64,000 nt of DNA from Clostridia bacterium (lineage in GTDB: Bacteria > Bacillota > Clostridia > TANB77 > CAG-508), in NCBI GenBank assembly GCA_017528085.1, contig JAFXPH010000002.1:145071-209070 (forward strand), read 5' to 3'. The translations under genes were made by a program, and so were the position numbers. The notes beneath the pieces were generated by a model. The model ran no database searches and was not told the origin of the DNA. It saw nothing but the letters and a program-made list of their open reading frames with translations. Numbering within the stretch: position 1 is the first letter of the stretch; each line of letters begins with the position of its first letter. Shown piece by piece: positions 10,707-32,702 of this stretch.

Positions 10707-10723
10707 TTAAGTTCCTTTAAATA

Positions 10724-13135: not shown

Positions 13136-13151
13136 TTTGCTCCTTTAAAAA

Positions 13152-15512
13152 TTAAATCTCATCATAATCAGAAAAGTCTGGTAAATCTCTTTGTCTTTCC
13201 TGATTCCTTTTAATTCTTTTTCCACGTTCAGATTCTAGACTGTCTTCTTTAGCAAGTTCATCTAACATCTCTTCATCGATAATGTATGGATATAATGCTC
13301 TACAAGTACATCTTATCTTACTTTCTAAACTTCTAAATCTTTCTAATTTAACACTATCTACTGGAAGAGTTTTATTTTTACTTTTAGCTACTTCTTCAAT
13401 TAAGTCCATCATTACTCTTGCCATATTGCCTTTTAAGTTTGAATAGTCAGTAGTAATTTCTTCAACATCTTCAGCTTCTTCTTCATTTAATATATCTTTA
13501 TATCTTACATCTGGGAAACCATATACTTTATCAATAACTTCTTTGCAAAGAAGTCTTGTTTGAAGAGCATTTTTTATTCCAAATAGTGAATACAAGTTTC
13601 CAGCATCTTCTGCAAATGTTCTAACATCAAGTACTCTTTTACCAAACTTAGAAGTTTTTCTTCCATGTTTTTCATAATTACCTTCTTCTAGATTTTTTCT
13701 AAGTTCAGTATGAACAGCTTCTAGTAGTACTGTCTTTTTGATAATATCAAAATCTTTTGACTGAAGTGCTACTGGCTCCTTATATGGATATTCAGTAGCA
13801 AGTGGCATATGACTATCTTTATCAAATATAATATTTGACCTAGTAGTTCCAACTCTAATGGATTTTACTTCAGCTACATCTTTAAGTGGCATTAGTGACT
13901 CACTTTCAGGTACAAATAGTTTTGATACAATTATTCCATTTGAGTTATTCTTTCTTATACTCATAGCAGAACCATCTAGTGGAACTTCCTTTATAAATCC
14001 TGTTTCAGGATTAAACGTTAAAACTAGATTTGAATCATCTTTTCTAAGTAAGAAACATATTTGATCAGGGAAACAATCTAGTTTAATTCTTCCTATATCT
14101 AAATCTGCAGATTCGTTTTGATATTTTTCTTCAATTAGTGATAATATTGCAAATGAATTTATCAAAGGACTTGAATGACTTTTAAATTGTCTTGGACTAT
14201 CTGAATAGTCTAGTGCAACTGATGAAAGTAAGTTTTGGAAATCAATATCAGAAAGTGTTCCATTTACTTTTATCTTTCCAAGTACTTCAAATATTTTTGA
14301 GTAATCAATTTCTCCATCTTCATCTTCTATGTAATCTCGCTCTAAAGACACTACTAATTGTTTAGATTCAGAGCTTCTATTTAAGTTTTCATAGAATCTA
14401 TCAGATTGATTAAACTCTGGAAAGTCTTCATCACGAAGTTCTCCATGTCTTCCAAAATTACTTGAAACTTTATTAATATAACCGTTTACATCATTAATTA
14501 TTCTTCTTCCAACTTCACCTATTTGTGATTCTGGTACATCAACTAATAGATGTGATCTTTCAATTAAATGTTTTGTAAAGTCTGCAAGCATAGTAGATAC
14601 TTCTTTTTTAGATAGTTTCCATGTCTTAGATAATTCTAATGCAACAGGAAGTGTATCTTTTACAAAAAGTCTAAAATCGACTTTCCCATCCTTATAGTAT
14701 CTTAAAGACTCTATTCTTGATTTTTCATACTCTTTATAAAGTGTTAAGATTCTATCTCTACCATCTTGAAGTAAATCTTCATTTGATTTATCTTCCATTG
14801 TCTTTTGATGATCATCATCATGAACTCTACCATGTAGTTCTTCAAATTCTTCATCCATTATTTCGATAGATTCAACTAAATCATCGTAAAGACCCTTAGG
14901 ATTATTAGAGTGCTTACTTGCAATTTTAGCCATATCTCTAAAGAAATGATTTCCTTTACCTGTTAAGTAATAACATATAAATCTATCTCCAAACATCTTA
15001 TGAACAAGTCTTACTGTATCTACATTATCTTTATAAGATGTATAGTTTCTGAATTTAACAAGTTGAGTTAGATATTCTGTAATACCTTCTCCAAAGAATC
15101 TCTTAAATCCTCCATAGCCATCTTTCATAGCACGTGCTAAGGCATGAATAGTCTCGTGAGTATCTACTCTACTTTTTTCATCTAAATCTCTTGTGTATCT
15201 TACAACGATTCTATCTTTAGCAGACGCATCATCACCTTCAGTTGTATGATATCCAGCAACATCAGGATTATTCTTTAGATACTCATCTTCTGTATCTCCT
15301 GCATACTTATATATTAAATTTCTTGCTAAAGCAGATATGTGATTTGACCTTACCCATCTTCTAAAATTCTTATAACCTAAAAAATCTAAGATTTCTCCAA
15401 AAGTATCTTTAATCTCATCTTTTAAAGGTTCTTCGATGTCATCATTTTGGTCAATATATCTACTTATTAGATCATTTTCCATCTTTAGTCCTTTTACCCT
15501 TAAAAAGGGCAT
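13152..15512 (-). CDS. large cytoplasmic HExxH (zincin-like) protein, paralogue C
   Basis: 786 aa; NFRRWVRS...THETIHALARAMKDGYGGFKRFFGEGITEYL. First gene of the apparent three-gene operon. Confidence 0.6.
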   Translation of the reverse strand: MPFLRVKGLKMENDLISRYIDQNDDIEEPLKDEIKDTFGEILDFLGYKNFRRWVRSNHISALARNLIYKYAGDTEDEYLKNNPDVAGYHTTEGDDASAKDRIVVRYTRDLDEKSRVDTHETIHALARAMKDGYGGFKRFFGEGITEYLTQLVKFRNYTSYKDNVDTVRLVHKMFGDRFICYYLTGKGNHFFRDMAKIASKHSNNPKGLYDDLVESIEIMDEEFEELHGRVHDDDHQKTMEDKSNEDLLQDGRDRILTLYKEYEKSRIESLRYYKDGKVDFRLFVKDTLPVALELSKTWKLSKKEVSTMLADFTKHLIERSHLLVDVPESQIGEVGRRIINDVNGYINKVSSNFGRHGELRDEDFPEFNQSDRFYENLNRSSESKQLVVSLERDYIEDEDGEIDYSKIFEVLGKIKVNGTLSDIDFQNLLSSVALDYSDSPRQFKSHSSPLINSFAILSLIEEKYQNESADLDIGRIKLDCFPDQICFLLRKDDSNLVLTFNPETGFIKEVPLDGSAMSIRKNNSNGIIVSKLFVPESESLMPLKDVAEVKSIRVGTTRSNIIFDKDSHMPLATEYPYKEPVALQSKDFDIIKKTVLLEAVHTELRKNLEEGNYEKHGRKTSKFGKRVLDVRTFAEDAGNLYSLFGIKNALQTRLLCKEVIDKVYGFPDVRYKDILNEEEAEDVEEITTDYSNLKGNMARVMMDLIEEVAKSKNKTLPVDSVKLERFRSLESKIRCTCRALYPYIIDEEMLDELAKEDSLESERGKRIKRNQERQRDLPDFSDYDEI

Positions 15513-18836: not shown

Positions 18837-18881
18837 TACAAAAAGGAGTTCAATCAATTTGAACTCCTTTTCTCTATTCTC

Positions 18882-20039
18882 TTAAGGTGAACATTTTTTG
18901 CAAGGTTGATATCCTCGACTTATCAAAGAATCTCGCGAACTATTTGAATACTCTTTATTCTTTTCTTTCATACTATTTACAGATGAACACCATGAATAAT
19001 GAAATTTTTTTGTGTTTTTATTTAAAACATATGTAGCTTCATTATTAGTACTTGTAGTTTGTTCTTTTGTAGCACTAGTAGTAGGTGTTGTAGTTGTTTG
19101 TTCAGAGATTGATTTGCTACTTGATGTTTCACTGCTATTTTTTGAATTATCCATAGCAATTGATGATGCAATTGCTGTAGACTGAGTTAATTCATTTGTA
19201 GAAGTTTCTTCTACTCTTTTACTCTCTCCTGTTTTATAATCTATTTCTATTCCAGGTTGTACATTATAGCAAAAAACATTAAATTGAATGCCTTTACCAT
19301 TGTCTTCAACAGATTTAGCTTCTATTAAAACGCCTTTTGCCAACATATCATCGTCATTAAACATTGGAGTTACTCTATATAAAACATGATTTTTAGTGTT
19401 ATTAACATAGTCAGATACTCGATTTTCAAATCTTAGCATTCCTTCTGTATTCATGAATCTTGTGCCCGTCATTAAGTTCTTTTCATTCGCATTTTCGCCA
19501 GTTAATGATTGAGCTATCAAATGACATCTGTTATATAAATTACTTCCATCTATACCATTATACTTTGTATCTTTCCATCCTGTTGGTTTTATATAACTAA
19601 TGTTTTCTCTTGGCTTATCATCCATTCCTACTCCAATACAAGCAGTAGCTATACCAACTCTTCCCAATTTGTCCAATTCACTATAGTACTCATAAGAATT
19701 TGTAGTTAATTCACTATCATCAAAAAATGGTATATTTCCATTAATTTCAACATACGGAGTACTTTCAAATTCTGGTATATCTAGTAATGTGATTTTATTA
19801 GTTGTATCTACTAAATTCCTTTTCTCTTCATCTTTTGCTTTTTCATTTATTATATTATTATTAACTTCTTCATTATTTATTTTATCTATTTCAATTTGTT
19901 TGTTTTCAGCAACAATAACATTTTGATTTACTTCATTTGAAGATATATTATTACCAACTCCAGCTATTCCTACAATAACTACTAAAGTTAGTATTCCTAT
20001 CATAAATCCTATAAACCCTGATATTATTTTACTTCCCAT
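18882..20039 (-). CDS. membrane-anchored secreted DNA/RNA non-specific endonuclease (EndA/Endonuclease_NS_2-like), paralogue 1
   Basis: N-terminal signal anchor, then a nuclease core containing YNRCHLIAQSLTGENANEKNLMTGTRFMN. C-terminal KKFHYSWC...GYQPCKKCSP is an H/C3 cluster. The core is ~55% identical to 26188..27099. Confidence 0.6.
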   Translation of the reverse strand: MGSKIISGFIGFMIGILTLVVIVGIAGVGNNISSNEVNQNVIVAENKQIEIDKINNEEVNNNIINEKAKDEEKRNLVDTTNKITLLDIPEFESTPYVEINGNIPFFDDSELTTNSYEYYSELDKLGRVGIATACIGVGMDDKPRENISYIKPTGWKDTKYNGIDGSNLYNRCHLIAQSLTGENANEKNLMTGTRFMNTEGMLRFENRVSDYVNNTKNHVLYRVTPMFNDDDMLAKGVLIEAKSVEDNGKGIQFNVFCYNVQPGIEIDYKTGESKRVEETSTNELTQSTAIASSIAMDNSKNSSETSSSKSISEQTTTTPTTSATKEQTTSTNNEATYVLNKNTKKFHYSWCSSVNSMKEKNKEYSNSSRDSLISRGYQPCKKCSP

Positions 20040-20113
20040 ATTATTTTCCCCCATATAACAATTTCTTATTTCAATAATAACTTGCTTATTATTCCAAATT
20101 AATTAAATCTATA

Positions 20114-21499
20114 TTATTCAATCCACTTTTTAAAGATTTCTATATTATCTCCTTTTCTTATATACTCAAACAATATATCTAAAATACCCTTGTATATTTT
20201 ACATCTATATTCATTGGGATTTTGTGCAAATAAATTATTGTCCTGTGCATAAGTGATTACCGGACAAGTCCCACAATATGGAGAATAAACGCAACTATTA
20301 CAAGTTGGTATGCATTCTAAACATGATGCAACAGCCAAAGATTTTGTTACATCACTATTCATCAAATCTTCGTATGAATCTTTGAATACATTTCCCAATT
20401 TAAAACTATTATCTCCCATTTCAGAAAGCATTCTAGCTTCATCGCAAGAATATATATTACCATCATAATAGTATGCTAATTGTCCAATTGCACCTCCACA
20501 TGGAGACCTTAATTCCATATAGTTTACTGGTTGGTTCATTAATATTTTTTTCAAAAAAATTGATGCAAGGCTTTCACTTAAGAAATAACCTTCTTTATTT
20601 TTTTCTATAATATATTTTAACGATTTGTCATAAAAACTCAAAAATTCATCTGCTTCATAGCCGATTTTTTCCCAATTTGAATCTGCTTTTCCTAATTGAG
20701 TTAATGGCCTTAGTGAAATACTATCTAGTCCTAATTTTACATACTCATCTATTATTTCTCTATAGTGATTAAAGCTATATTTTGATGTAGTTTCAATAGC
20801 ATTTACTTTGGTATTCATTTTTTGAATATCCTTTATCCTTTTTACTGTACATTCATAAGAATCATTCTTAGGAAAAGGTCTATTAGTATTGTGTAATTTT
20901 TTATTCCCATCAATAGAAGTACATATATTAACATTATGATTTATTAAAAATTCTAACATTTCTTCTGACATTAATGTTAAATTACTTACTAAACTAAACT
21001 CTATTATTTTATCGCTATTAATAGATTCAGTATATTCAACTATATATTTTATTACATCAAAATTAGTTAATGGTTCTCCTCCTTGAAATTCAAATGTCAT
21101 TATTTCAGATGGAGATTGCATAGCTATATCTACTGCTTTTTTTGCAATTTCTTTAGTCATCTTATAATCATTCTTTTCATCTAGATTACCAGCCTGACAA
21201 TATATACATTTAAAATTACAATTTTTACTCACCACAAAAATATGCAAAGATGTAGGTATGAATAAATATTCTTTCATCTTTCGTACTTCTTTTGAATAAC
21301 TATTTGAAAAAATTTCATCACTACAATTATAAATAAAGCCTTTTTCTATGAGTTCATCTTCAATATCCTTTTTTAATTCTGATTTTTTTAAAAGATTATT
21401 AAAAGTTTTTTCATCTATAAATGCATATTTTCCAGCATCAGTTGTTATTAAATATCCATTATCTATTTGTTTAAAATTAAAATAATTCAATTTATACAT
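20114..21499 (-). CDS. hxsB: His-Xaa-Ser system radical SAM maturase with C-terminal SPASM domain (HxsB-like)
   Basis: CNFKCIYC is the Cx3Cx2C radical-SAM motif. C-terminal Cys-rich SPASM region CGGAIG...CDEARML...CLECIPTCNSCVYSPYCGTCP. Located in the Hxs locus. Confidence 0.65.
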   Translation of the reverse strand: MYKLNYFNFKQIDNGYLITTDAGKYAFIDEKTFNNLLKKSELKKDIEDELIEKGFIYNCSDEIFSNSYSKEVRKMKEYLFIPTSLHIFVVSKNCNFKCIYCQAGNLDEKNDYKMTKEIAKKAVDIAMQSPSEIMTFEFQGGEPLTNFDVIKYIVEYTESINSDKIIEFSLVSNLTLMSEEMLEFLINHNVNICTSIDGNKKLHNTNRPFPKNDSYECTVKRIKDIQKMNTKVNAIETTSKYSFNHYREIIDEYVKLGLDSISLRPLTQLGKADSNWEKIGYEADEFLSFYDKSLKYIIEKNKEGYFLSESLASIFLKKILMNQPVNYMELRSPCGGAIGQLAYYYDGNIYSCDEARMLSEMGDNSFKLGNVFKDSYEDLMNSDVTKSLAVASCLECIPTCNSCVYSPYCGTCPVITYAQDNNLFAQNPNEYRCKIYKGILDILFEYIRKGDNIEIFKKWIE

Positions 21500-21512
21500 A
21501 TACTTTCAACTC

Positions 21513-22661
21513 CTATTTTACAGGCTTTATCCTTGCTTCTTTTAAATTAATTGTTGAGTTAAATAATCCCCCACATTCCTTCTTTAGTGTGCAACCACTG
21601 CATTCTTCTCTATATCTTACTTTATAATCAGATATGCTCTTTACAGCAAAAGCATATACTCTTTCATCTAAAGCACATAACGGAAAATTATATAAATTAA
21701 CTATAATCCCATGTTTTATTAGTTCCAAACAAGCTTTATAAACAGGTTCCTTTATATCTTCATAATCTACCCATATCTGATTTTTATTTATAATTGCATT
21801 ACCACACATTTCTAAAGACATAATATTAACCATTGTTATAGTAGGTATTTCATTGCATATAAATCTTGCTATTTTATCTAAAATTTTATAATTTAATTTT
21901 TGAACCACAATTCTTATTTCAACATCTATTCCTCTATTTAACAGTTTCTTTATACCACAAACAGCTTGTTTAAAGCTATTATCTGCACGTGTGATACTAT
22001 CGTGCAATTCAGGTTCATCAGCGTATAATGGGATGCCTACTCTAGTATATTTTGGTACAACAGATTTAAATTTATCTACAAATTCTGTATTAGAGAAAAT
22101 TCTTCCATTACTTAATAATAAAAACTCTGTATTGGGAAGATATTTCTTACATTCAGCAAATATTTTTATCAGATCATCTTTCAATAATCCTGGTTCTCCA
22201 CCAGTAATAGTAATGTGACTGGTATCATTTGGTATAGCTCTAATATGATCTAAGATTACATTTATACTTGGTATATCTTTTGTATTTCTTACAGAATCTG
22301 CATCTGGACACATAATACAATTCGAATTACATTGATTAGTAACTAAAATATAATTATCATTTGAATCATCTCTATACAAAACTCTTATATTTAAATCTTT
22401 AATTATTTCTATAACATCATAATTACTTAAACTATCAATATCTTTAACACCCAAACAATAATTATCTAAATTGCTATTACAAGAATCACATTCTAAAACA
22501 TAGGCTTTATATCCTATTTCTGGTTTGTCCATATTATCTTTGCTTAATACCTGTATGTAATCCTTTTTATTCTCAGCATTATCATTTTTTATAACTTTTC
22601 CTATTATATATTCTTCTCGTATCTTTATTGTTCCAGTTAATATATTCATTCTTTTTTCCAT
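21513..22661 (-). CDS. hxsC: His-Xaa-Ser system radical SAM protein (HxsC-like)
   Basis: LVTNQCNSNCIMCPD is the Cx3Cx2C motif. There is no SPASM tail. ATG at 22661 has AGAGGAG upstream; the track start at 22682 overlaps the upstream gene. Confidence 0.6.
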   Translation of the reverse strand: MEKRMNILTGTIKIREEYIIGKVIKNDNAENKKDYIQVLSKDNMDKPEIGYKAYVLECDSCNSNLDNYCLGVKDIDSLSNYDVIEIIKDLNIRVLYRDDSNDNYILVTNQCNSNCIMCPDADSVRNTKDIPSINVILDHIRAIPNDTSHITITGGEPGLLKDDLIKIFAECKKYLPNTEFLLLSNGRIFSNTEFVDKFKSVVPKYTRVGIPLYADEPELHDSITRADNSFKQAVCGIKKLLNRGIDVEIRIVVQKLNYKILDKIARFICNEIPTITMVNIMSLEMCGNAIINKNQIWVDYEDIKEPVYKACLELIKHGIIVNLYNFPLCALDERVYAFAVKSISDYKVRYREECSGCTLKKECGGLFNSTINLKEARIKPVK

Positions 22662-22671
22662 AATTTCTCCT

Positions 22672-23709
22672 CTATAATACAACTTTTAAAACAAAGAATA
22701 AAATTTCTCCTAAAAGAATAAAAGGTGCAAAAGGCATATGCCTTACAATAGTTATCTTATCAGTTCCTTTTGGAGTTTGACTCCATCTTTTTATACTTTC
22801 TACTTCTTCATTAGTCAATCTACAATCCGTTGATTCATCTGAGAATTTTGGCAATCCTTTAACCTTAGAGTTATAAAATGGTATAACACTATCAAAAGAT
22901 AAAATCATTCTCTCTTTTAAATCCTTAACTGAGATTGTTTTATAATTATATTTTTCTGATATTTTTCTAAAAATCATTATTAATACTATTATTACTAATA
23001 GAGAAACATCTATTGTATAAGCTTTTATTCCATATAAAATTACATACCCAATATTAATAGCAAGCAATGTGATTAAAGATATAATTTTAACTTTATTCTT
23101 TCTATTAATTTGATAAAAGAACAAAAGCATTACTACATTTATAATATAAACCAATTCATTGTTATACATAACATAAGTAGTAAAAAATGTATTAATAATG
23201 TTATAAAACAAGATAGATAGTAAATAGCCATTTGTAAAATCAACTATATAGTCAATAAAAATCTCTTTAGTAAATTTACTGCTTTTTATATTGTTTAATT
23301 TTTCTTTATCAATCAAGAATAATACTATTGTTTCAATAAAGACATAAATAAAAGCAATAGAAAACACATAAATCAACAAATACATACTTGCAAAATAGTT
23401 GTTATTACTAACTTCATACAATTCATATGGAATAATAAAAGTTAAAGCAATAAATAGTTTTGCATCTCCTGCTCCCCATATTTTAAAATAAAAAAAAGCA
23501 AACGATACTATACATGATATAAAAAAATTTACTAAATGACTTTTTACATATGTTTCATCAATTTGCTGAAAAAAAACAAGATACATAAGAGCACTTAATG
23601 ATACTGCTACAATAATAGATTTATTATATATTTTTTGATTTTTAAAGTCAGAAATAGCTGATACAATTCCTATTAATAATGCAATAACAATTTGAGTATA
23701 AACTAGCAT
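22672..23709 (-). CDS. polytopic membrane protein, A24 prepilin-peptidase-like (putative leader peptidase of the Hxs locus)
   Basis: About 8 predicted TM helices. WGAGDAKLFIALTFIIPYELY resembles the prepilin peptidase (A24) GxGDxKL catalytic Asp region. Confidence 0.45.
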   Translation of the reverse strand: MLVYTQIVIALLIGIVSAISDFKNQKIYNKSIIVAVSLSALMYLVFFQQIDETYVKSHLVNFFISCIVSFAFFYFKIWGAGDAKLFIALTFIIPYELYEVSNNNYFASMYLLIYVFSIAFIYVFIETIVLFLIDKEKLNNIKSSKFTKEIFIDYIVDFTNGYLLSILFYNIINTFFTTYVMYNNELVYIINVVMLLFFYQINRKNKVKIISLITLLAINIGYVILYGIKAYTIDVSLLVIIVLIMIFRKISEKYNYKTISVKDLKERMILSFDSVIPFYNSKVKGLPKFSDESTDCRLTNEEVESIKRWSQTPKGTDKITIVRHMPFAPFILLGEILFFVLKVVL

Positions 23710-23711
23710 TT

Positions 23712-24140
23712 TTAATCCTCTTTCCTTCTATTAAACCAATTAATTGCAATATCATTTATATCATAATCTTCATCTTCTTCATAATACTCCTTTTTAGTAT
23801 CATTTATTATTTCATTTGAATTATCAGATTTTATACAAGAACTATACAATGCTCGTCCCAATATAAGTTCTCTAATGTCTTTAGTTTCTACAGAAATCTC
23901 ATATCTCAAAGATTCTCTATTACAATCATTTAGTAAATCTTTAATAGTATTATCATCTATTAACTCATCTTCTTTTTTAGTTTCTATTAATAATTCAATT
24001 CTATTTCTTTTCTCTTTAATAGTAATATAAAAATCATTTAAATAATTAAAAATAGCTTTTTTTACAGAAGATAAAGGATAAACATTTTTATTAATCTTTA
24101 TGACTGCTTTATTATCATTAATCTTATAACTTGTATTCAT
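23712..24140 (-). CDS. hxsD: His-Xaa-Ser system protein HxsD
   Basis: Contains LLNDCNRESLRYE, matching the family-defining LLNDYxLRE motif. 142 aa, located directly downstream of hxsA. Confidence 0.6.
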   Translation of the reverse strand: MNTSYKINDNKAVIKINKNVYPLSSVKKAIFNYLNDFYITIKEKRNRIELLIETKKEDELIDDNTIKDLLNDCNRESLRYEISVETKDIRELILGRALYSSCIKSDNSNEIINDTKKEYYEEDEDYDINDIAINWFNRRKED

Positions 24141-24152
24141 AATACTATTCCT

Positions 24153-24554
24153 TTACATTATTTTAGGCATACTTCCAGATTTCTGTGGTGTTTGAAAAGT
24201 TGGTAATGATGAGTGAACATTATTGTGTGTAGTAGTTGCTGGGCTACTTGAATGTGTACTTGCCGCACTACTTGAATGATTAGAGTGTGTACTTGTTGAA
24301 CTGCTTGTATGACTTTGGTGACTAGTATGACTATAATGTCCTCCACTTCCTGATCTATGTGAACTATGTGATCTATGTGAGCTATGTGACCTATGAGCAG
24401 CAAATACGTAATTTGAAAAAATAATTCCTGCAACCAACATTAGTGATCCAACTGTTAATATTTTTCCTCTACTGATATTACCTTCTTCTTCATATAAAAA
24501 ATCAATTAATTTTCTATTGTTTTTTCTACCATCTATATCATTATTTGTATCCAT
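24153..24554 (-). CDS. hxsA: His-Xaa-Ser repeat precursor protein HxsA (single TM anchor plus HRS/HSS repeats)
   Basis: AAHRSHSSHRSHSSHRSGSGGHYSHTSHQSHTSSSTSTHSNHSS, preceded by the TM helix ILTVGSLMLVAGIIFSNYVFAA. RBS GGGGAG upstream. Confidence 0.65.
   Translation of the reverse strand: MDTNNDIDGRKNNRKLIDFLYEEEGNISRGKILTVGSLMLVAGIIFSNYVFAAHRSHSSHRSHSSHRSGSGGHYSHTSHQSHTSSSTSTHSNHSSSAASTHSSSPATTTHNNVHSSLPTFQTPQKSGSMPKIM
24300..24420. repeat. in-frame 9-bp tandem repeats (nCTATGTGA units) encoding the HxS repeats of hxsA
   Basis: tgatctatgtgaactatgtgatctatgtgagctatgtgacctatgag: four to five head-to-tail 9-nt units. Confidence 0.6.
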
Positions 24555-24557
24555 CTT

Positions 24558-25253
24558 TTAATACTCCCCTTTATAACTGTTCTCTGACCATGTACCTGTA
24601 TAAGACTTTCCTGTATCTTTAAATGTATATGTTCCTTCGCCATTATATTTGTCTTTAGCAAACTCTCCCTCATATTTGTCTCCATTTGCAAATATATATG
24701 TTCCATGGCCTGACATATAATCATTGCTCCATTCGCCATTATACACATCACCATTAGAAAAGTTCATTGTTCCATGGCCTTCTCTTTTTCCTTCAGAGAA
24801 TTCACCTTTATAAACACCAATTGTAGAAGCAGTTAAAGTTCCTGAACCAGACGCTTCACCATTCACAAAACTTCCTTCATAAATGTATCCATTACTAAAT
24901 TCATACTTACCAGAAGTATCCTGTTTAACGCCATTTATAATGTCACCCGTATATGTTCCATTCTTCAACTTTACAGTAACATCTCTTTGAATATTACTTT
25001 GAGGTTCTGATATTTTTTCTTCTTTTTTGTCATTTTCTATGGTTTCTACATCTTTTTCTATTTCTTTAGTATCTTCGTCATTATTAATATCTGTAGTTTC
25101 TTTATACTCTTGAACTATACTAGTATTTTTAGTAGTATTACTAGATGTATTATTATTTGCCACTTCAGCTGCTCCACCTAAAGCTGCTAAAGTCATTATG
25201 CCAACTGTTGCTCCTATTATGCCTGCCTTACTTTTATTATTGTTTTCTCCCAT
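24558..25253 (-). CDS. membrane-anchored MORN-repeat protein
   Basis: C-terminal half is made of YxGxxxxGxxxGxG MORN units (YEGSFVNGEASGSG, YKGEFSEGKREGHG, YNGEWSNDYMSGHG, YEGEFAKDKYNGEG). ATG at 25253 (MGENNNKSK) with GAGGA upstream; the track start at 25265 is GTG. Confidence 0.65.
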   Translation of the reverse strand: MGENNNKSKAGIIGATVGIMTLAALGGAAEVANNNTSSNTTKNTSIVQEYKETTDINNDEDTKEIEKDVETIENDKKEEKISEPQSNIQRDVTVKLKNGTYTGDIINGVKQDTSGKYEFSNGYIYEGSFVNGEASGSGTLTASTIGVYKGEFSEGKREGHGTMNFSNGDVYNGEWSNDYMSGHGTYIFANGDKYEGEFAKDKYNGEGTYTFKDTGKSYTGTWSENSYKGEY

Positions 25254-25510
25254 AATTGTCCTCACAAATTTTATTAGATTTACTTAATCTTTACTATTAC
25301 TTATATCATAAAATATAATTGTTCTCAATTATTATAAAAAAACTATTTTAATAGTTTACAATATACACATGAACTATATGCTTTAGCTATTAACCCATTT
25401 CTTAGGCTATAATATTCTTCTTTATTTTTATAACTTATATCAAAAAAATAGTATATTACTAAATAAAATTCATTTAATGCTTTTTATATTTATTTTCCTT
25501 AATAGCATTT

Positions 25511-26187: not shown

Positions 26188-27099
26188 TTATGGTTTACAG
26201 TATCCACAAGGCGTGTATCCTTGTTCTATTACTTCTGCTCTAGTTCCATAAAATTCTTTTTTATTCTTCTCTTTTATTTCTACAATATTTGGACAACTCA
26301 TTTTATGAAACTTCATACTACTTGTGTTTAATATGTATTTTGAGTTTACTACGTCTTGTTCTAAGCTATGATTAGCACCAGTTGCATAATCTATTTCTAT
26401 ACTTGGTTGAACATTATAACAATATATGCAAAACTTAATTCCTTCTCCTTTATCTTCTACTGAATATGCTTCCATAAGTACACCATCTGCAATTAGATTA
26501 TCTCCTGTAAATATTGGCGTTACTCTATACATAACATGATTGTTAGTTTTATAAATATAGTTTGCAACTTTACTTTCAAATGGTTCCATACCATCTGTAT
26601 TCATATATCTAGTACCAGTAATAAGATTTTCTTTATTTGCATTTTCTCCAGCTAGTGAAAATGCAATTAAGTGACATCTATTATAAAGAAGTTCTCCTTC
26701 TATCCAATCATACTTTGATACTTGCCAACCAGTAGGTTTTACTTCGCTTATTTGTTCTCTAGGTTCAGTAGGCATTAAATCTTTTCCAAGACAAGCTGTA
26801 GCTTTAGTGCATCTACCAAGTTGATCTAATGAATCATATTGTTCAAATGATTTTACTACTATTTCTTCCTCAGTAAAGTATGGTTCATTACCATTAATCT
26901 CTACATATGGACTATTACTAAATTCAGGTATATCAGTTAATGAATACTTTTCAACAGTTTCAATAGATTCATTTTCAATTTCATTACTTATTTGATTTTC
27001 AATTAATTGGTTATTATCTTCTATCGGTACATTTGAAAAAAATAGTATAAGTACCACAGATAGCAAAACACTATATACAATATATTTAACAGCTTTCAT
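26188..27099 (-). CDS. secreted DNA/RNA non-specific endonuclease (EndA/Endonuclease_NS_2-like), paralogue 2
   Basis: Signal peptide MKAVKYIVYSVLLSVVLILFF. Core YNRCHLIAFSLAGENANKENLITGTRYMN. C-terminal MKFHKMSC...GYTPCGYCKP motif, as in 18882..20039. Confidence 0.6.
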   Translation of the reverse strand: MKAVKYIVYSVLLSVVLILFFSNVPIEDNNQLIENQISNEIENESIETVEKYSLTDIPEFSNSPYVEINGNEPYFTEEEIVVKSFEQYDSLDQLGRCTKATACLGKDLMPTEPREQISEVKPTGWQVSKYDWIEGELLYNRCHLIAFSLAGENANKENLITGTRYMNTDGMEPFESKVANYIYKTNNHVMYRVTPIFTGDNLIADGVLMEAYSVEDKGEGIKFCIYCYNVQPSIEIDYATGANHSLEQDVVNSKYILNTSSMKFHKMSCPNIVEIKEKNKKEFYGTRAEVIEQGYTPCGYCKP

Positions 27100-27137: not shown

Positions 27138-28973
27138 TTAATTATTAGACTCTTCAATAAACTTTACTATTTTTTTACAGATATTTATTGCTTGTCTAGA
27201 TAAATCATTATAATCAATTATATTTTTAGCTATTCTTTTTGAGAAATCAACTTTATTCAAAATAGTACCAGTTCCACCTTTTTTTGAGTACTTTCTACTT
27301 AATAAATAATGATCATCTATAAAGCTTCCCATATATGTTTCTTTATTCTTATATTCTCTTTCCTCATATTTTTTCTTATACTTTACTTCTTTACCATCAA
27401 ACAAAGTTCTCTCTAATACTTCTTTTGAAATTGTATTTTCAATCTCTCTAACAGTTAATTCATAAAAATTATCTTTGAAAATATCTTTTAACTTCTTCTT
27501 TCTTTCACTTTTGTTTTTAGAGTCATTATCATTATCACATATAATAAAGCTTCTATTGGTAATGCCTGATGTATTTATTGAATCTATTGAGTTTGTTGAT
27601 TCAAAATCCCAATGTGTAATATTATTTCCGCCATATTCTACAAAAGCATAATTTATATCTTCTTTATAATTTGTGTTTCCTTCATTTTCAAAATATACTT
27701 CTAAATACCTTTTTATTAGTATCTTATCACTAATTCCTTCAACCCAAATAGTACAATTAGCCATAAATACCGAAGAATTGTTTACCCCTAAGCTTTCTAA
27801 GATTGTAATATCATTAGGTAAAGTATATGAAATTCTGAATCTATTATTTGAGTTGTCAATATTAGTGAACTTAAATATAGATATATTAGAATAATCAAAG
27901 CAACTATCAATTAAATGATTCGAGTGCGTTGTTATAAAATACTGATGTTTAGCAAAAATATCTAGATGTAATATTTCCATCAATCTTCTTTGAAATCCTG
28001 GGTGTAGATTTAGTTCTGGTTCTTCAATAAAAAACACTCTTTCTCTGTCCTTATTCTCATAAATTACATACAAGATTGTAATTAATTGCTTAATTCCATC
28101 CCCTAATTCATGTAAAGGTCTTTCCTGATTACCAATTTTTACATTTATAAATCCTTCATCTTTTTGAGGTATAAGAGTAAATTCATTTCCATTATAAAAC
28201 TGTTGTGAAATAAAGTTTTGAAATTCTTTTATAAAAATTCTACCATCTTCTTTTCCTAATAATTTATTAGTTATATCTTCATACAAATTTTCAGCAGTAA
28301 ATATTAATTGTTCTTTTATTCCATAAGCTTTTTTTATCTTGTTTTGATATATTTGATTAACATTTGTTTTATATTTTTCTAAAGCATCTCTTTGCCTTTG
28401 ATTCATTAAAATAGATTTTAAATCATCATTATTATTGTTAATTTCAAAATAAATATTAAAGTTTTCTATTCCTCTTAAAATAGGTATATAAATTGGATTA
28501 CGCGCTGAAATTGATGTCTGTCGTACATTTTTGTTTTCTCTACATAGTATTTCTAATAATCTATTCATTTGACTATCTATATGAGATATATAATTACTAA
28601 CAGGATAATTATTAGATTTGTAATTGTTTTTAAACATATCTATTTTTTCTTGAATACAACAATAAAAGTCCGTATTTGTCATATCATTATTGTTATCTAT
28701 TTGAAAATCATAATTTGTGTTATTGGTAATTAGTTTTAGATTATTAATAATACTATTTCTACAATCATTTGTGTCATCTTTTACAAAATCATTAGATAAA
28801 ATTTTAACCATGTCGGAGTTTACTAAAAGCCTCATCATTTTACTTTTTCCACTATTATTTTCTCCTATAAACACATTAACTTTATTTAAATGATTTATAT
28901 ATTTAATAGGCATTCCGTTTATCCCATAATAAATATTATCAGTTGCCCCTGCAATTTGTACAGCATTAATCAT
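27138..28973 (-). CDS. OLD-family ATP-dependent endonuclease (ABC-type ATPase plus TOPRIM), standalone class-1-like
   Basis: Walker A VFIGENNSGKS. ABC signature/D-loop FIEEPELNLHP. TOPRIM residues IWVEGISDKILI (Glu) and FIICDNDND (DxD). Asn-rich low-complexity inserts. Confidence 0.6.
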   Translation of the reverse strand: MINAVQIAGATDNIYYGINGMPIKYINHLNKVNVFIGENNSGKSKMMRLLVNSDMVKILSNDFVKDDTNDCRNSIINNLKLITNNTNYDFQIDNNNDMTNTDFYCCIQEKIDMFKNNYKSNNYPVSNYISHIDSQMNRLLEILCRENKNVRQTSISARNPIYIPILRGIENFNIYFEINNNNDDLKSILMNQRQRDALEKYKTNVNQIYQNKIKKAYGIKEQLIFTAENLYEDITNKLLGKEDGRIFIKEFQNFISQQFYNGNEFTLIPQKDEGFINVKIGNQERPLHELGDGIKQLITILYVIYENKDRERVFFIEEPELNLHPGFQRRLMEILHLDIFAKHQYFITTHSNHLIDSCFDYSNISIFKFTNIDNSNNRFRISYTLPNDITILESLGVNNSSVFMANCTIWVEGISDKILIKRYLEVYFENEGNTNYKEDINYAFVEYGGNNITHWDFESTNSIDSINTSGITNRSFIICDNDNDSKNKSERKKKLKDIFKDNFYELTVREIENTISKEVLERTLFDGKEVKYKKKYEEREYKNKETYMGSFIDDHYLLSRKYSKKGGTGTILNKVDFSKRIAKNIIDYNDLSRQAINICKKIVKFIEESNN

Positions 28974-29091: not shown

Positions 29092-29466
29092 TTATAGCTC
29101 ATAGTTTGTACTATTTTTTTCGAAATTCCATGCATCTCTGCACATATCTTCTAGGAACTTTTCTGCAGTCCATCCAAGTTCTGTTTTAGCTTTAGTAGCA
29201 TTTGCATAATATTCTGGAAGATCTCCATCTCTTCTTCCTACTATCTCATACTTAATCTTTACATTATTAACTCTTTCAAAAGTATTTACAATATCTAATA
29301 CACTATATCCTTTTTCAGTACATAGATTAAATGTATTTAGTCCTTTATGTTTTTCCATATACTCTATTGATTTAACATGGCCTTTAGCTAGATCTACTAC
29401 ATGGATATAATCTCTTACCCCTATACCATCACGAGTTAGATAATCATTACCAAATATAATTACATT
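29092..29466 (-). pseudogene. galE: 3' remnant of UDP-glucose 4-epimerase gene galE (C-terminal ~125 codons only)
   Basis: In-frame translation VIIFGNDYLTRDGIGVRDYIHVVDLAKGHVKSIEYMEKHKGL...GYSVLDIVNTFERVNNVKIKYEIVGRRDGDLPEYYANATKAKTELGWTAEKFLEDMCRDAWNFEKNSTNY matches the conserved GalE C-terminal half (IFGNDY, GVRDYIHV, RRxGD). The frame closes with a stop just upstream, and the N-terminal Rossmann half is absent. Confidence 0.6.
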
Positions 29467-30068
29467 TTTTCTAATAACTCACACAACTCTTCTTCCGAAT
29501 ATGTTGCATAATCAGCAGCTTCAAGTAAACTAGGTGCAATTTTTCTAACTCCTCCAAAAGCAATTCCTACATCTGCTATTTTTGCCATTTTTGCATCATT
29601 ACTTCCATCACCTATTGCAATTACTTTATATTCTTTTTTATTTATAAAATCCATAGCGACTTCTTCTTTATCTATCACAAAATCTATGCTTTCAATTCGA
29701 TCATTTTTAACAGTAGCTCTTGAACTAAAATAATTATTTTCCATATTCATTTTTTTCATTAACTTCTTTATAAATGTATCAACACTTCCTGATACTATGT
29801 AGCATTCATTTTTATGTTTATTAATAAAGTCAACTAATTTTTCATTGAGTGGAATATCTAGTATTGTTTCATCAATTGTACTTACTGGAATATCTTTCAA
29901 CATACCCATTCTTTTCTTAAGTCCTTCATCAAAAGGAATATCTTGGGTCATACACATTTCTGTAAGTCTTTTCATTTCATCTTCCTTACCAATCTTTTTT
30001 GCTATAGTTGGTAATATTTCGCCTTTAGTGATTGTTGAATCCAAATCAAACAAATAAATCTTTTTCAT
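29460..30068 (-). CDS. HAD-family hydrolase, phosphoserine-phosphatase-like (SerB-type fold)
   Basis: MKKIYLFDLDSTIT is motif I DxDST, with IAIGDGSNDAKM as motif IV. Its 3' end abuts or overlaps the galE remnant in another frame. Confidence 0.6.
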   Translation of the reverse strand: MKKIYLFDLDSTITKGEILPTIAKKIGKEDEMKRLTEMCMTQDIPFDEGLKKRMGMLKDIPVSTIDETILDIPLNEKLVDFINKHKNECYIVSGSVDTFIKKLMKKMNMENNYFSSRATVKNDRIESIDFVIDKEEVAMDFINKKEYKVIAIGDGSNDAKMAKIADVGIAFGGVRKIAPSLLEAADYATYSEEELCELLEKM

Positions 30069-30096
30069 ATTATAATCTCTTTCAATCTTTTAATAA

Positions 30097-31512: not shown

Positions 31513-31518
31513 TTTTCA

Positions 31519-32691
31519 TCACTTAAATAATTCTTTAATTTCCTCCATCATAGAATACACTTGTTTCTTTTGTTCAATACAATCTATTTTTTTGATATCT
31601 TTTTGAATTTGATTTACTTTTTCTATAACTATTTTATGGTTAAAATTATCATTTTTGAAACAAAAATCATCTAATTTGATTGTATTCATGAAATCATCTA
31701 CTTTATAATCATATGAAATAGCTATTGCGGGTACACCATAAGAAACAGAAACAATTATTGGATGCATTTTGGTGCTTATAACAAGTTTTCCTTCTGATAA
31801 ATATTTACACATTTGCTCTGCTGACTCACATTTAATGATCTCACAGTTATGAAGTTTGTTATTATTTGTTAGATAATTAACAAATTTTAAATCCCAATTC
31901 CATTTAACACTCATGACAAATCTAATTCTATTATTATTTGATAATTCAGTTATTATTTTTTTCCATTCTTTTTTATATTTTAAACCAACAATGGAGAATC
32001 TTTTTTTTATTTTCTCAAGTATTTTATTTTTCTTTTTACTATTAATATATCTATAACTTGTATATGCTGCTGGCATAACATTTATAAAATCATGAGGTTC
32101 ACTTGCAATAATATAATCCGATATTGTTACAGCTAAATCTGGATTTAACTTGATAATACTACTTGGATTTATATTTTTTAATAGATTTTGTGAACTACTA
32201 TCTCTCACACTAATATAATCGCACAAATCCAAAATTTCCTTTAATAATAATCTTCCTTTTGTTGAAAAAACTGGTCCTATTGATTGTCCAATTATTACAA
32301 CCTTAGCTCCTTTCATATGAGCAATATATATTTCTAATAATCTTGAAACAAATTGAGTAATCCAATTTTCTGAAAAGTATCCACCTCCAGACATAACAAA
32401 AACAGTATTAGCATCAAACATACTTATATATTCTTTAAGGTTATAATCTAACATGTTATTTTTTATTAATTCAAAATCATCTAAACTACGAATATTTTTT
32501 TCCAGATAACTATGAATAGATGGATATGCTTCTATATTATGAATTTTTAAAAAGTCACTAGTTTTATATGAAGTGTACATAATTGTGTCGTTCTTAAAAA
32601 ACTTACTAAATAACTCTATAGTGGATTTAGCTATTACTTCGTCTCCAATATTCCCATATGACCATCCACCTGATATTATATATTTCATCAA
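31519..32691 (-). CDS. polysaccharide pyruvyl transferase family protein
   Basis: N-terminus MMKYIISGGWSYGNIGDEVIAKS matches the PS_pyruv_trans GxxGxxNxGDEAI signature. Confidence 0.55.
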   Translation of the reverse strand: MMKYIISGGWSYGNIGDEVIAKSTIELFSKFFKNDTIMYTSYKTSDFLKIHNIEAYPSIHSYLEKNIRSLDDFELIKNNMLDYNLKEYISMFDANTVFVMSGGGYFSENWITQFVSRLLEIYIAHMKGAKVVIIGQSIGPVFSTKGRLLLKEILDLCDYISVRDSSSQNLLKNINPSSIIKLNPDLAVTISDYIIASEPHDFINVMPAAYTSYRYINSKKKNKILEKIKKRFSIVGLKYKKEWKKIITELSNNNRIRFVMSVKWNWDLKFVNYLTNNNKLHNCEIIKCESAEQMCKYLSEGKLVISTKMHPIIVSVSYGVPAIAISYDYKVDDFMNTIKLDDFCFKNDNFNHKIVIEKVNQIQKDIKKIDCIEQKKQVYSMMEEIKELFK

Positions 32692-32702
32692 TAATTCCCC
32701 TC

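What the first reader, a model, noticed from the sequence alone, without database searches (positions are those of the whole stretch)
20114..24554. Complete His-Xaa-Ser (Hxs) peptide-modification locus with an embedded prepilin-peptidase-like protein
Five co-directional genes on the minus strand: (i) a 133-aa precursor with a TM anchor and HRSHSSHRSHSSHRS...HYSHTSHQSHTSS repeats (HxsA); (ii) a 142-aa protein carrying LLNDCNRESLRYE, the defining motif of HxsD; (iii) an 8-TM protein with a WGAGDAKL prepilin-peptidase (A24) signature; (iv) a radical-SAM enzyme with Cx3Cx2C but no SPASM domain (HxsC-like); (v) a radical-SAM/SPASM enzyme (HxsB-like). This system is defined only by comparative genomics and its product and function are unknown. 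Here the precursor is membrane-anchored and the locus contains an aspartic-peptidase-like membrane protein that is not part of the canonical four-gene description. That suggests processing or secretion of a radical-SAM-modified His/Ser-rich peptide, perhaps with a metal-binding role.
Basis: partly seen in the sequence, partly recalled or inferred. Interest (0 to 1): 0.75.

Follow-up and report, generated by a model that had tools for sequence, protein, structure and literature searches.

The report
Six-gene HXS variant with own peptidase
This is a real His-Xaa-Ser (HXS) locus, a system shown in 2026 to block phage DNA entry in E. coli, but in a six-gene gut-Clostridia form with its own membrane peptidase, a MORN-repeat partner and a special precursor leader that no paper found here describes.

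Summary
All five minus-strand genes exist, and HxsA3, HxsD, HxsC, HxsB and Peptidase_A24 each pass their curated HMM cut-offs.

The interpretation needs three corrections:
- HXS is no longer of unknown function. A 2026 Nat Commun paper shows the four-gene E. coli system blocks phage DNA entry through a radical-SAM-matured, N-terminally processed HxsA.
- The conserved unit here has six genes. A membrane-anchored MORN-repeat gene (24558-25265) lies directly upstream of hxsA3 in 48 of 54 informative loci.
- The "TM anchor" sits between a conserved cytoplasmic leader (DFLYEEEG-NISRGK) and a signal-peptidase-I-like site, so it may be a cleavable signal sequence.

Best reading: a monoderm-adapted HXS variant whose dedicated GxGD peptidase removes the leader. 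This is a new variant of a known kind. Cleavage and antiphage function are inferred, not shown.

The parts
24558..25265 (-). MORN-repeat membrane protein, the sixth conserved gene of the cassette. It has an N-terminal TM segment, a low-complexity linker and MORN repeats. Public gene calls start it at 25253 (231 aa). Its stop codon lies 3 nt before the hxsA3 start.
   Evidence: PF02493 MORN, 83.2 bits. It is directly upstream of hxsA3 in all Clostridia-type genome loci where that region is present, and in 48 of 54 informative loci seeded with the HxsA3 leader, in both gene arrangements. Gene call.
24153..24554 (-). hxsA3 precursor (133 aa): leader, hydrophobic segment, HxS repeats, then a Ser/Thr-rich tail ending in a conserved LPxFQxPQ motif.
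   Evidence: NF038309 HxsA3, 103.8 bits against cut-off 65. Family alignment. 12 HxS/T triplets.
24462..24554 (-). Leader of HxsA3 (aa 1-31), containing the conserved DFLYEEEG-NISRGK. The candidate A24 cleavage site is after Gly25 (EEG|N). The alternative site is R-G|K at the start of the hydrophobic segment.
   Evidence: D18, F19, L20, E23, E24, I27 and R29 are invariant. The residue after EE is Gly in 72 and Ala in 4 of the 76 leader segments scored, from 77 unique segments; the residue at the start of the hydrophobic segment varies between G, S and N. HxsA4-type precursors from CPR, DPANN and Omnitrophota have the same leader.
24399..24461 (-). Hydrophobic segment of HxsA3 (aa 32-52, ILTVGSLMLVAGIIFSNYVFA), ending in a signal-peptidase-I-like V-F-A|A junction. 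It is either a TM anchor or a cleavable h-region.
   Evidence: In the A3 family, position -1 is A or G in 59 of 62 and position -3 is V, I, A or G in 61 of 62. No signal-peptide predictor was available, so cleavage is inferred.
24303..24395 (-). Core HxS repeats (aa 54-84: HRSHSSHRSHSSHRS...HYSHTSHQSHTS), the presumed target of HxsB and HxsC.
   Evidence: The sequence is nearly identical to the canonical Aeromonas HxsA core AGHRSHRSHSSHRSHSSHRSH. In E. coli the +8 Da modification maps to SHRSS in an HxS repeat.
23712..24140 (-). hxsD (142 aa), with LLNDCNRE at residue 69 and a 41-residue acidic C-terminal tail (nt 23715-23837) that carries the motif DIAINWF.
   Evidence: TIGR03976, 52.4 against 50. 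The tail motif IAxNWF[DE] / GIAIPWEEK is conserved in A24-linked loci from Clostridia to DPANN and CPR, and is absent from the 97-aa canonical Aeromonas HxsD.
22672..23709 (-). Hxs-associated A24-like GxGD aspartic peptidase (345 aa). The catalytic candidates are D21 (nt 23647-23649) and D82 in WGAGDAKL (nt 23464-23466). It has about 10 helices, a cytoplasmic soluble domain at aa 255-327 (nt 22729-22947) and a C-terminal PFAPF motif.
21513..22682 (-). hxsC radical SAM maturase. The probable start is 22661, giving 382 aa.
   Evidence: TIGR03977, 323.6 against 267.9. C118x3Cx2C and C361xxCx5C. 28.9% identity to Aeromonas HxsC. Gene call.
20114..21499 (-). hxsB radical SAM/SPASM maturase (461 aa).
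   Evidence: TIGR03978, 520.6 against 370. Radical_SAM and SPASM domains. C94x3Cx2C and C396x3Cx2C. 37.7% identity to Aeromonas HxsB.
18840..20054 (-). Context only, not part of the conserved cassette: a membrane-anchored non-specific endonuclease gene (18882-20054) that starts 59 nt after the end of hxsB, followed by the only minus-strand terminator-like hairpin in the region (18840-18872). It may be co-transcribed with the cassette in this genome.
   Evidence: PF13930, 81.6 bits. Terminator scan. The nuclease was found next to only one of the 160 related loci, L081.

Best explanation
The locus is a genuine His-Xaa-Ser (HXS) system of the HxsA3 subtype, in a six-gene form: MORN-hxsA3-hxsD-A24-hxsC-hxsB. 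This form is typical of gut and rumen Clostridia.

Proposed mechanism:
1. HxsA3 is made with a conserved, acidic cytoplasmic leader (DFLYEEEG), then a short basic stretch, a hydrophobic segment and the HxS repeats.
2. In the cytoplasm the radical SAM enzymes HxsB and HxsC, with HxsD, modify the HxS repeats, as shown for E. coli HxsA.
3. The dedicated FlaK-like GxGD peptidase has its two aspartates and its soluble domain on the cytoplasmic face. It removes the leader, most probably after the near-invariant Gly of EEG. This supplies in cis the N-terminal processing step that is essential, but has no assigned protease, in the E. coli system.
4. The remaining signal-like N-terminus carries the modified His/Ser/Arg-rich effector to the outer face of the membrane. 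There it stays anchored, or is released at the A-x-A site.
5. The membrane-anchored MORN protein takes over the retention role played by the peptidoglycan-binding domain of proteobacterial HxsA.
6. The effector then interferes with entry of phage DNA.

What is shown here: gene identities, the strict synteny, the catalytic-residue and fold conservation, the co-variation of leader, HxsD tail and peptidase, and the absence of all of these from the canonical locus I read.

What is inferred: that HxsA3 is the peptidase substrate, the cleavage position, the topology, the role of MORN and the antiphage function of this variant.
For: Identity:
- All four Hxs equivalog HMMs pass their cut-offs, and Peptidase_A24 passes its Pfam cut-off.

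A24 is a core component:
- It lies between hxsD and hxsC in all 27 Clostridia-type genome loci.
- It is also there in 39 of 39 loci retrieved independently with the HxsA3 leader.
- None of the other window neighbours tested (five genes) recurs; the downstream endonuclease appears next to one related locus only, L081.

A24 is probably an active peptidase:
- D21 and D82 of the GxGD motif are invariant.
- Both aspartates and the soluble domain are on the K/R-rich side, 21 against 1.

Substrate logic:
- The leader FLxxEE[G/A]xI[ST][KR] plus a hydrophobic stretch is conserved from Clostridia to DPANN, CPR and Omnitrophota, always beside an A24-like gene.
- Canonical Aeromonas HxsA has an ordinary short Sec signal and a peptidoglycan-binding domain. 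That locus has no leader, no A24 and no MORN gene, and its HxsD is 97 aa without the tail.

Function by homology:
- The HxS core is nearly identical to the canonical one.
- E. coli HXS blocks phage DNA entry. It needs N-terminal processing that is not simple signal-peptide removal, and the protease is unidentified.

Context:
- An OLD/GajA/AriA-like ATPase lies 2.6 kb upstream.
- Scattered defence genes occur in the flanks of related loci.
Against: - There is no experimental or structural evidence that HxsA3 is the A24 substrate.
- The candidate Gly lies 6 residues before the hydrophobic segment. Known A24 substrates are cut right at its start, and the residue at that position here varies between G, S and N.
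- A conserved signal-peptidase-I-like site downstream could account for N-terminal processing without A24.
- The charge flanking the HxsA3 hydrophobic segment does not fix its orientation.
- MORN is missing from 6 of 54 informative loci.
- The flanks of related loci are mostly capsule and polysaccharide genes, not dense defence islands.
- No relatives were found on viral contigs, and PADLOC has no model, so nothing links this variant directly to phage.
- HxsC is only 29% identical to the canonical protein, and HxsD and HxsA give no BLASTP hit to it.
Confidence: 0.6

Rival explanations
1. The A24-like protein belongs to the system but does not cleave HxsA3. It would act instead as a membrane scaffold or exporter that docks the HxsC-HxsD complex (for example through the HxsD acidic tail), as a signal-peptide-peptidase that clears the leader and signal remnant after signal peptidase I has released the effector, or as a processor of another protein such as the MORN partner.
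For: - A conserved A-x-A junction could give the mature N-terminus without A24.
- The HxsD tail and the K/R-rich cytoplasmic domain of the A24-like protein co-occur.
- The residue at the start of the hydrophobic segment is not a conserved Gly.
Against: - Both catalytic aspartates are invariant over 45-63% sequence identity and are kept in relatives at 21-30% identity.
- The MORN N-termini are not conserved and have no class-III-like motif.
- The leader, not MORN, is the feature that follows the peptidase into CPR and DPANN lineages.
Confidence: 0.2
2. One reading: the product is a secreted or anchored radical-SAM-modified His/Ser-rich peptide whose role is metal binding or some other non-defence envelope function, and the HxsA3 variant does not act against phages.
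For: - The mature region is rich in His.
- The flanks of the window and of related loci are dominated by capsule and cell-envelope polysaccharide genes rather than defence genes.
- No experiment exists for any monoderm HXS system.
Against: - The HxS core is almost the same as in canonical HxsA.
- The canonical system restricts 110 of 113 coliphages, and its HxS repeats bind DNA.
- All four maturation and effector families pass equivalog-level HMMs.
- Nothing in the cassette resembles a metal transporter or regulator.
Confidence: 0.15
3. The A24-like gene is an ordinary prepilin or competence peptidase that lies inside the Hxs operon by chance in this genome.
For: Public annotation calls it simply 'prepilin peptidase'.
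Against: - It is present in 39 of 39 and 27 of 27 related loci, in two different gene arrangements.
- It has a family-specific C-terminal domain found only in this architecture.
- No pilus or competence families were among the 25 most frequent Pfam families in the flanking genes of related loci, which is all the scan lists.
- No NCBIfam prepilin-peptidase model is matched.
Confidence: 0.02

Closest known systems
E. coli / Pseudomonadota HXS antiphage system (HxsD-HxsB-HxsC-HxsA; Li et al., Nat Commun 2026, PMC13128918)
   Same: - It has the same four protein families, all at equivalog HMM level.
- The HRSHSSHRSHSS core is nearly identical.
- It has two radical SAM enzymes with Cx3Cx2C plus C-terminal Cys clusters.
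- HxsD has the LLND..RE motif.
- The precursor needs N-terminal processing and export to the extracytoplasmic side.
   Different: - The gene order here is MORN-A3-D-A24-C-B, against D-B-C-A.
- The precursor has a conserved 25-31-residue FLxEEG leader and no peptidoglycan-binding domain.
- There are two extra conserved genes, the A24-like peptidase and MORN.
- HxsD carries a conserved acidic C-terminal tail.
- The host is a monoderm Clostridia MAG, whereas 99.7% of surveyed HXS systems are in Pseudomonadota.
- HxsB is 38% and HxsC 29% identical to the canonical proteins.
HxsA4/HxsC4-type Hxs systems of CPR bacteria, DPANN archaea and Omnitrophota (NCBIfam NF038313, NF038332; no paper on them turned up in my searches)
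   Same: - The leader architecture is the same: PKIKKxIxxFLxxEEGxIS[KR], then a hydrophobic stretch, then HxS repeats.
- They have the same A24-like peptidase with the C-terminal soluble domain.
- HxsD has the same tail motif.
   Different: - The repeats are mostly HGS and end in GQW.
- Many loci have 3-7 tandem HxsC-like radical SAM genes.
- DPANN loci are often A24-D-B-A with no adjacent HxsC.
- No MORN gene was detected.
Peptidase family A24 (prepilin peptidase PilD, archaeal preflagellin peptidase FlaK, PibD)
   Same: - The Pfam domain passes its cut-off.
- The two-aspartate GxGD active site is conserved.
- The fold matches FlaK.
- The active site is at the cytoplasmic face.
- The putative substrate has an N-terminal cytoplasmic leader followed by a hydrophobic segment.
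   Different: - There are no pilin, archaellin or secretion-ATPase genes in the cassette.
- There is no methyltransferase domain.
- There are extra helices and a family-specific cytoplasmic domain.
- The leader is long and acidic rather than short and basic.
- The conserved Gly is 6 residues upstream of the hydrophobic stretch.
- It scores far below the FlaK equivalog cut-off, 22 against 330.
Radical SAM/SPASM RiPP pathways with dedicated leader peptidases (for example sactipeptide and ranthipeptide clusters)
   Same: - A leader-bearing precursor is modified by a SPASM-type maturase. HxsB's next-best HMM hits are PapB, CcpM and SCIFF maturases.
- A cluster-encoded peptidase is the presumed leader-removal step.
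   Different: - The product is an effector of about 80 residues rather than a small peptide.
- The peptidase is an intramembrane-type GxGD aspartic enzyme. From my own knowledge, not tested here, the usual ones are C39, S8 or M16 types.
- No paper in the searched library links prepilin-type peptidases with radical SAM RiPP maturation.

Membership tests
His-Xaa-Ser (HXS) system | HxsB: radical SAM/SPASM maturase matching TIGR03978 above its cut-off | tested here: met
   520.6 bits against cut-off 370. Radical_SAM and SPASM domains. C94x3Cx2C.
His-Xaa-Ser (HXS) system | HxsC: second radical SAM enzyme matching TIGR03977 above its cut-off, adjacent to HxsB | tested here: met
   323.6 bits against cut-off 267.9. 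C118x3Cx2C. It ends 13 nt before the hxsB start.
His-Xaa-Ser (HXS) system | HxsD: small protein with the LLNDYxLRE-type motif (TIGR03976) | tested here: met
   52.4 bits against cut-off 50, a narrow pass. LLNDCNRE at residue 69. Also PF27806 in the public precomputed annotation.
His-Xaa-Ser (HXS) system | HxsA: precursor with tandem His-Xaa-Ser repeats | tested here: met
   It passes the HxsA3 sub-model NF038309 (103.8 against 65). It scores far below the canonical HxsA model TIGR03979 (20.7 against 121.65). It has 12 HxS/T triplets.
His-Xaa-Ser (HXS) system | Canonical architecture: four genes in the order D-B-C-A, with HxsA carrying a short Sec signal and a peptidoglycan-binding domain | tested here: not met
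   Six conserved genes in a different order. The precursor has a long leader and no peptidoglycan-binding domain. It is therefore a variant, not the canonical form.
His-Xaa-Ser (HXS) system | Blocks phage DNA entry; +8 Da modification and N-terminal processing of HxsA | not testable with these tools
   Known only for the E. coli system.
Peptidase A24 (GxGD aspartic membrane peptidases) | Match to PF01478 above its gathering score | tested here: met
   37.5 bits against 26.5, residues 10-123.
Peptidase A24 (GxGD aspartic membrane peptidases) | Two conserved catalytic aspartates, the second in a GxGD motif | tested here: met
   D21 and D82 (WGAGDAKL) are invariant in 31 homologues and are kept in distant relatives.
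Peptidase A24 (GxGD aspartic membrane peptidases) | FlaK/PilD-type membrane fold | tested here: met
Peptidase A24 (GxGD aspartic membrane peptidases) | Substrate with a class III signal peptide: a short basic leader ending in Gly immediately before the hydrophobic segment | tested here: inconclusive
   HxsA3 has a leader followed by a hydrophobic segment. The leader is long and acidic, the near-invariant Gly is 6 residues upstream, and the residue at the start of the hydrophobic segment is G, S or N.
Peptidase A24 (GxGD aspartic membrane peptidases) | Equivalog-level membership in FlaK, or genomic association with pilus or archaellum genes | tested here: not met
   NF040695 FlaK_Arch scores 22.2 bits against cut-off 330. 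The neighbours are always Hxs genes, and no pilus families were among the 25 most frequent Pfam families in the flanks, which is all the scan lists.
Peptidase A24 (GxGD aspartic membrane peptidases) | Proteolytic activity | not testable with these tools
   This needs a biochemical or genetic assay.

The most novel reading that the evidence does not exclude
An A24-type GxGD membrane peptidase is the dedicated leader peptidase of an ancient HXS lineage that spans Clostridia, CPR bacteria, DPANN archaea and Omnitrophota. It would cut after the EEG motif of a conserved cytoplasmic leader, and only then would the radical-SAM-modified effector be released for export, so cleavage acts as a maturation checkpoint. 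This would be the first RiPP-like pathway to use a prepilin or preflagellin-type peptidase. It would name a candidate enzyme class for the unassigned N-terminal processing step of HXS immunity, and show how a 'periplasmic' DNA-entry block is built in cells with a single membrane, with a MORN-repeat partner replacing the peptidoglycan-binding domain.
Probability: 0.4. Interest if true: 0.75.

Novelty: new variant of a known kind. Interest (0 to 1): 0.6.

Why it matters
HXS is the first bacterial system reported to block phage genome entry. Its authors could not identify how HxsA is N-terminally processed or reconstitute maturation, and their survey found the system almost only in Pseudomonadota.

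This locus shows a widespread six-gene form in monoderm gut and rumen Clostridia. Its deep relatives in CPR and DPANN lineages share three co-varying features. It encodes its own candidate processing enzyme, so the missing proteolytic step becomes directly testable with D21A/D82A mutants and mass spectrometry of HxsA3.

It also suggests how the effector is retained at the membrane when there is no periplasm. More broadly, it extends the known range of substrates for prepilin-type peptidases beyond pilins and archaellins.

Tried and rejected
- PADLOC scan of the cassette: the only hits were generic radical-SAM matches to pVip. The 2023 library has no Hxs model, so this says nothing either way.
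- Viral-contig scan with the A24-like alignment: no relatives. This gives no evidence for prophage carriage.
- Promoter scan: fewer sigma-70-like sites than in shuffled sequence in this 26% GC DNA, so it is uninformative. Only the terminator result was used.
- MORN protein as the A24 substrate: rejected as the leading idea. Its N-terminus is not conserved, has 1-3 TM segments and shows no motif.
- R-G|K at the start of the hydrophobic segment as the conserved cleavage site: downgraded, because that Gly is replaced by Ser or Asn in about half of the leaders and by other residues in HxsA4 types.
- The flanking endonucleases, the OLD-like ATPase, the XRE regulator and orf159 as system components: rejected, because they are not conserved in 160 related loci.
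- Defence-island enrichment: pooled flanks show mainly capsule and polysaccharide genes with only scattered defence genes, so this is weak support.
- Co-folding of the leader with the peptidase: not attempted. The structure tool returns no coordinates or contacts and accepts only native sequences.
- Haft and Basu's original description could not be retrieved from the library. It is cited only through PMC9062424.

Full report
**1. The observation**

The five co-directional minus-strand ORFs are at the stated coordinates. Against NCBIfam and Pfam:

| Gene (window) | Family | Score vs cut-off |
|---|---|---|
| 24153-24554 | NF038309 HxsA3 | 103.8 vs 65 (E 3e-30) |
| 23712-24140 | TIGR03976 HxsD | 52.4 vs 50 |
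| 22672-23709 | PF01478 Peptidase_A24 | 37.5 vs 26.5 |
| 21513-22682 | TIGR03977 HxsC | 323.6 vs 267.9 |
| 20114-21499 | TIGR03978 HxsB | 520.6 vs 370 |

The quoted motifs are all present: 12 HxS/T triplets, LLNDCNRE, WGAGDAKL, Cx3Cx2C in both radical SAM enzymes, a second C396x3Cx2C in HxsB and C361xxCx5C in HxsC. The window matches a ruminant-gut MAG, GCA_017475375.1.

**2. What is already known**

The statement that the system is known only from comparative genomics is outdated. Li et al. (Nat Commun 2026, PMC13128918) report the following for the four-gene E. coli HXS operon:
- It restricts 110 of 113 coliphages without abortive infection or loss of adsorption.
- It blocks DNA entry. [quoted passage not shown] The cleavage needs HxsB, HxsC and HxsD.
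- A +8 Da modification sits on SHRSS, HxsC binds HxsD, and mature HxsA binds DNA.
- Their survey finds 99.7% of systems in Pseudomonadota, more than 99.8% with four proteins and 99.6% in the order D-B-C-A.
- They could not reconstitute maturation, and they invoke 'additional host factors'.
- The paper never mentions Firmicutes, Gram-positives, a peptidase or a protease.

No other paper in the library mentions HxsA3 or HxsA2, or links prepilin peptidases with radical SAM RiPPs.

**3. The A24-like protein is a core component of this subtype**

The family itself:
- The protein has 238 homologues, almost all 342-345 aa long.
- D21 and D82 (W-x-A-G-D-A-K-L-F), a C-terminal soluble segment and PFAPF are conserved across them.

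Survey seeded with the A24-like alignment:
- A scan of one genome per species found 225 relatives.
- All 27 Clostridia-type loci (gut and rumen Clostridia MAGs, Halanaerobiales, Anaerovorax) carry the gene between hxsD and hxsC.

Independent survey seeded only with the HxsA3 leader:
- This was a metagenome scan.
- 39 of 39 loci in which both hxsD and hxsC are visible have the A24-like gene between them.
- Two arrangements occur: MORN-A3-D-A24-C-B (12 loci) and D-A24-C-B-MORN-A3 (27 loci).

None of the other window neighbours tested recurs; the downstream endonuclease appears next to one related locus only, L081.

**4. A sixth gene**

The ORF at 24558-25265 ends 3 nt before hxsA3. It encodes an N-terminal TM segment and MORN repeats (PF02493, 83 bits). 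A homologue lies directly upstream of hxsA3 in 48 of 54 informative leader-seeded loci, and it moves together with hxsA3 between the two arrangements.

**5. Anatomy of the peptidase**

- The AF2 model is confident, with mean pLDDT 83.3. It has about ten helices and a soluble domain at residues 255-327 before the last helix.
- Loops on the side that holds D21, D82 and the soluble domain carry 21 Lys/Arg, against 1 on the other side. The active site and the extra domain are therefore cytoplasmic (inference from the positive-inside rule).
- The C-terminal domain occurs in 444 cluster representatives. In full-length proteins it is always at the C-terminus of a protein of about 340-370 residues with this architecture.
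- No NCBIfam model covers the family. FlaK_Arch scores 22 bits against a cut-off of 330, and the two distant members I scanned hit nothing.

**6. Anatomy of the precursor**

Across 64 unique HxsA3-type sequences the N-terminus reads PKINKKIxDFLYEEEG-NISR[G/S/N]K, then a hydrophobic stretch of about 20 residues, then [V/I/A]-x-[A/G]|A-HRSHSSHRSHSS.
- The residue after EE is Gly in 72 and Ala in 4 of the 76 leader segments scored.
- The residue at the start of the hydrophobic stretch varies between G, S and N.
- The junction before the repeats obeys the signal-peptidase I -3/-1 rule in about 95% of sequences.

So the 'TM anchor' may be the h-region of a signal sequence that is preceded by an unusual conserved acidic leader. 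Flanking charge does not settle its orientation.

**7. Deep conservation and contrast with the canonical system**

Relatives of the peptidase at 21-30% identity, with the same architecture, lie in Woesearchaeota, Aenigmarchaeota, Nanoarchaeia, Patescibacteria, Omnitrophota, Planctomycetota and Myxococcota. They sit next to HxsB and HxsD homologues or arrays of HxsC-like radical SAM genes. Of 53 such loci, 44 have a radical SAM hit and 28 have one within 300 bp.

Thirteen of these loci encode HxS precursors with the same leader (for example MKSKFPKIKKEITSFLVGEEGKISKQHILTIGAF...HSSHSSHSS). Of the three precursors scanned, two pass the NCBIfam HxsA4 cut-off (87.2 and 74.2 bits against 55) and one falls below it (47.2).

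HxsD in all A24-linked lineages carries an acidic C-terminal tail with the motif IAxNWF[DE] or GIAIPWEEK.

The canonical Aeromonas plasmid locus is D-B-C-A. Its HxsD is 97 residues long and has no tail. Its HxsA has an ordinary short Sec signal, a nearly identical HRSH core and a peptidoglycan-binding C-terminus. The window's HxsB is 37.7% and its HxsC 28.9% identical to those proteins.

Four features therefore co-vary: the peptidase, the FLxEEG leader, the HxsD tail and loss of the peptidoglycan-binding domain. In Clostridia, MORN is a fifth.

**8. Most likely mechanism (inferred)**

1. HxsB, HxsC and HxsD modify the repeats of the leader-bearing precursor in the cytoplasm.
2. The GxGD peptidase, with its active site on the cytoplasmic face, removes the leader. 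The most probable site is after the near-invariant Gly of EEG. The alternative is the start of the hydrophobic segment.
3. The remaining signal-like N-terminus takes the effector across the membrane. It stays anchored there, or is released at the A-x-A site.
4. The MORN protein may retain it near the membrane, in place of the peptidoglycan-binding domain.
5. The effector acts on incoming phage DNA, as in E. coli.

None of the following is shown: the substrate relationship, the cleavage site, the topology, the role of MORN, or antiphage activity in a monoderm.

**9. Context**

- Upstream lie an OLD/GajA/AriA-like ATPase (27138-28973) and a capsule polysaccharide cluster.
- Pooled flanks of 27 species-level loci show mainly capsule and envelope genes, with scattered defence genes: AbiLi, AriA-like, MADS, SspH and PtuA. 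That fits a variable surface and defence region, but it is weak evidence.
- No terminator separates hxsB from the downstream membrane-anchored endonuclease gene. That gene is not conserved elsewhere.

**10. Verdict**

This is a real and correctly recognised Hxs locus. Its general function is now known from the proteobacterial system. The specific six-gene, A24-containing, leader-bearing form appears in no paper I could find. It is conserved across dozens of Clostridia species and has deep relatives in CPR and DPANN lineages. It offers a concrete candidate for the unassigned processing step of HXS immunity. I class it as a new variant of a known kind, of moderate to high interest.

Noticed in passing
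window 18882-20054 (-) and 26188-27099 (-): Two paralogous non-specific endonucleases (PF13930) with hydrophobic N-terminal segments flank the cassette. They are 42% identical and each has a C-terminal Cys-containing KFH..C...PC..C motif. The downstream one starts 59 nt after hxsB with no terminator in between, so it may be co-transcribed. Extracellular nucleases next to a DNA-entry defence fit thematically, but a homologue was seen next to only one of 160 related loci (L081).
   Followed up: partly
window 27138-28973 (-): A 611-aa AAA_15/AAA_21 ATPase whose best PADLOC hits are AriA, GajA, OLD and PtuA models. It looks like a defence-type ATPase 2.6 kb upstream of the cassette. It has no obvious partner gene and was not found in related loci.
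   Followed up: partly
window 8358-15512 (-): Three tandem ORFs of about 785 aa (8358-10706, 10724-13135, 13152-15512). The first and third are 29% identical and share a THETIHALA (HExxH-like) motif. The one scanned had no Pfam hit. They may be a paralogous family of uncharacterised metalloprotease-like proteins.
   Followed up: partly
window 29460-35911 (-), and flanks of L001-L026: Capsule and cell-envelope polysaccharide genes (flippase, pyruvyl transferase, Wzy-like, GT2, Caps_synth) lie next to the Hxs region in the window. Similar genes (Polysacc_synt, Wzz, CpsB/CapC, LytR_cpsA_psr, GlmM-like) recur in the flanks of related Hxs loci.
   Followed up: partly
L029, L036, L042, L052, L066, L073, L076, L078 and others (CPR, Omnitrophota, Myxococcota loci): Arrays of 3-7 tandem HxsC-like radical SAM genes lie immediately upstream of the distant A24-like peptidase genes. 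That is far more maturase paralogues than in any described Hxs system.
   Followed up: no
L029:2181-2747 and L060:2954-3754 (Patescibacteria): These precursors have the FLxEEG leader, but their repeats are Cys-rich (HSSCHDSHSSCH..., SCHGSHNACHA...). They suggest a Cys-containing variant of the HxS repeat substrate.
   Followed up: no
L064:12710-13312 (Woesearchaeota): An HxS precursor with the conserved leader is fused to an extra C-terminal domain of about 110 residues (…GISFEWKDG…LIAQEVEKVFPELV…). The domain was not analysed.
   Followed up: no
window 23715-23837 (-), and HxsD of L001-L070: HxsD in A24-linked systems has an acidic C-terminal tail with the conserved motif IAxNWF[DE] (Clostridia) or GIAIPWEEK (DPANN, CPR, Omnitrophota). 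The canonical 97-aa HxsD lacks it. It may be a docking element for the K/R-rich cytoplasmic domain of the peptidase.
   Followed up: partly
L020, L021, L022, L025, L047 (arrangement II Clostridia loci): In this subgroup both HxsA3 (193-263 aa, with a long Pro/Thr/Val-rich C-terminal extension ending in ...KSNGKLVK) and the MORN protein (an extra C-terminal domain ending in WSNGKCTSITYKK) are enlarged together. This fits the idea that the two proteins work as a pair.
   Followed up: no
window 25253-25265 and 20039-20054: The N-termini of the MORN protein (MGENNNKSKAGIIGATVGI...) and of the downstream endonuclease (MGENNMGSKIISGFIGFMIGI...) resemble each other. They may share a signal-anchor module.
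   Followed up: no
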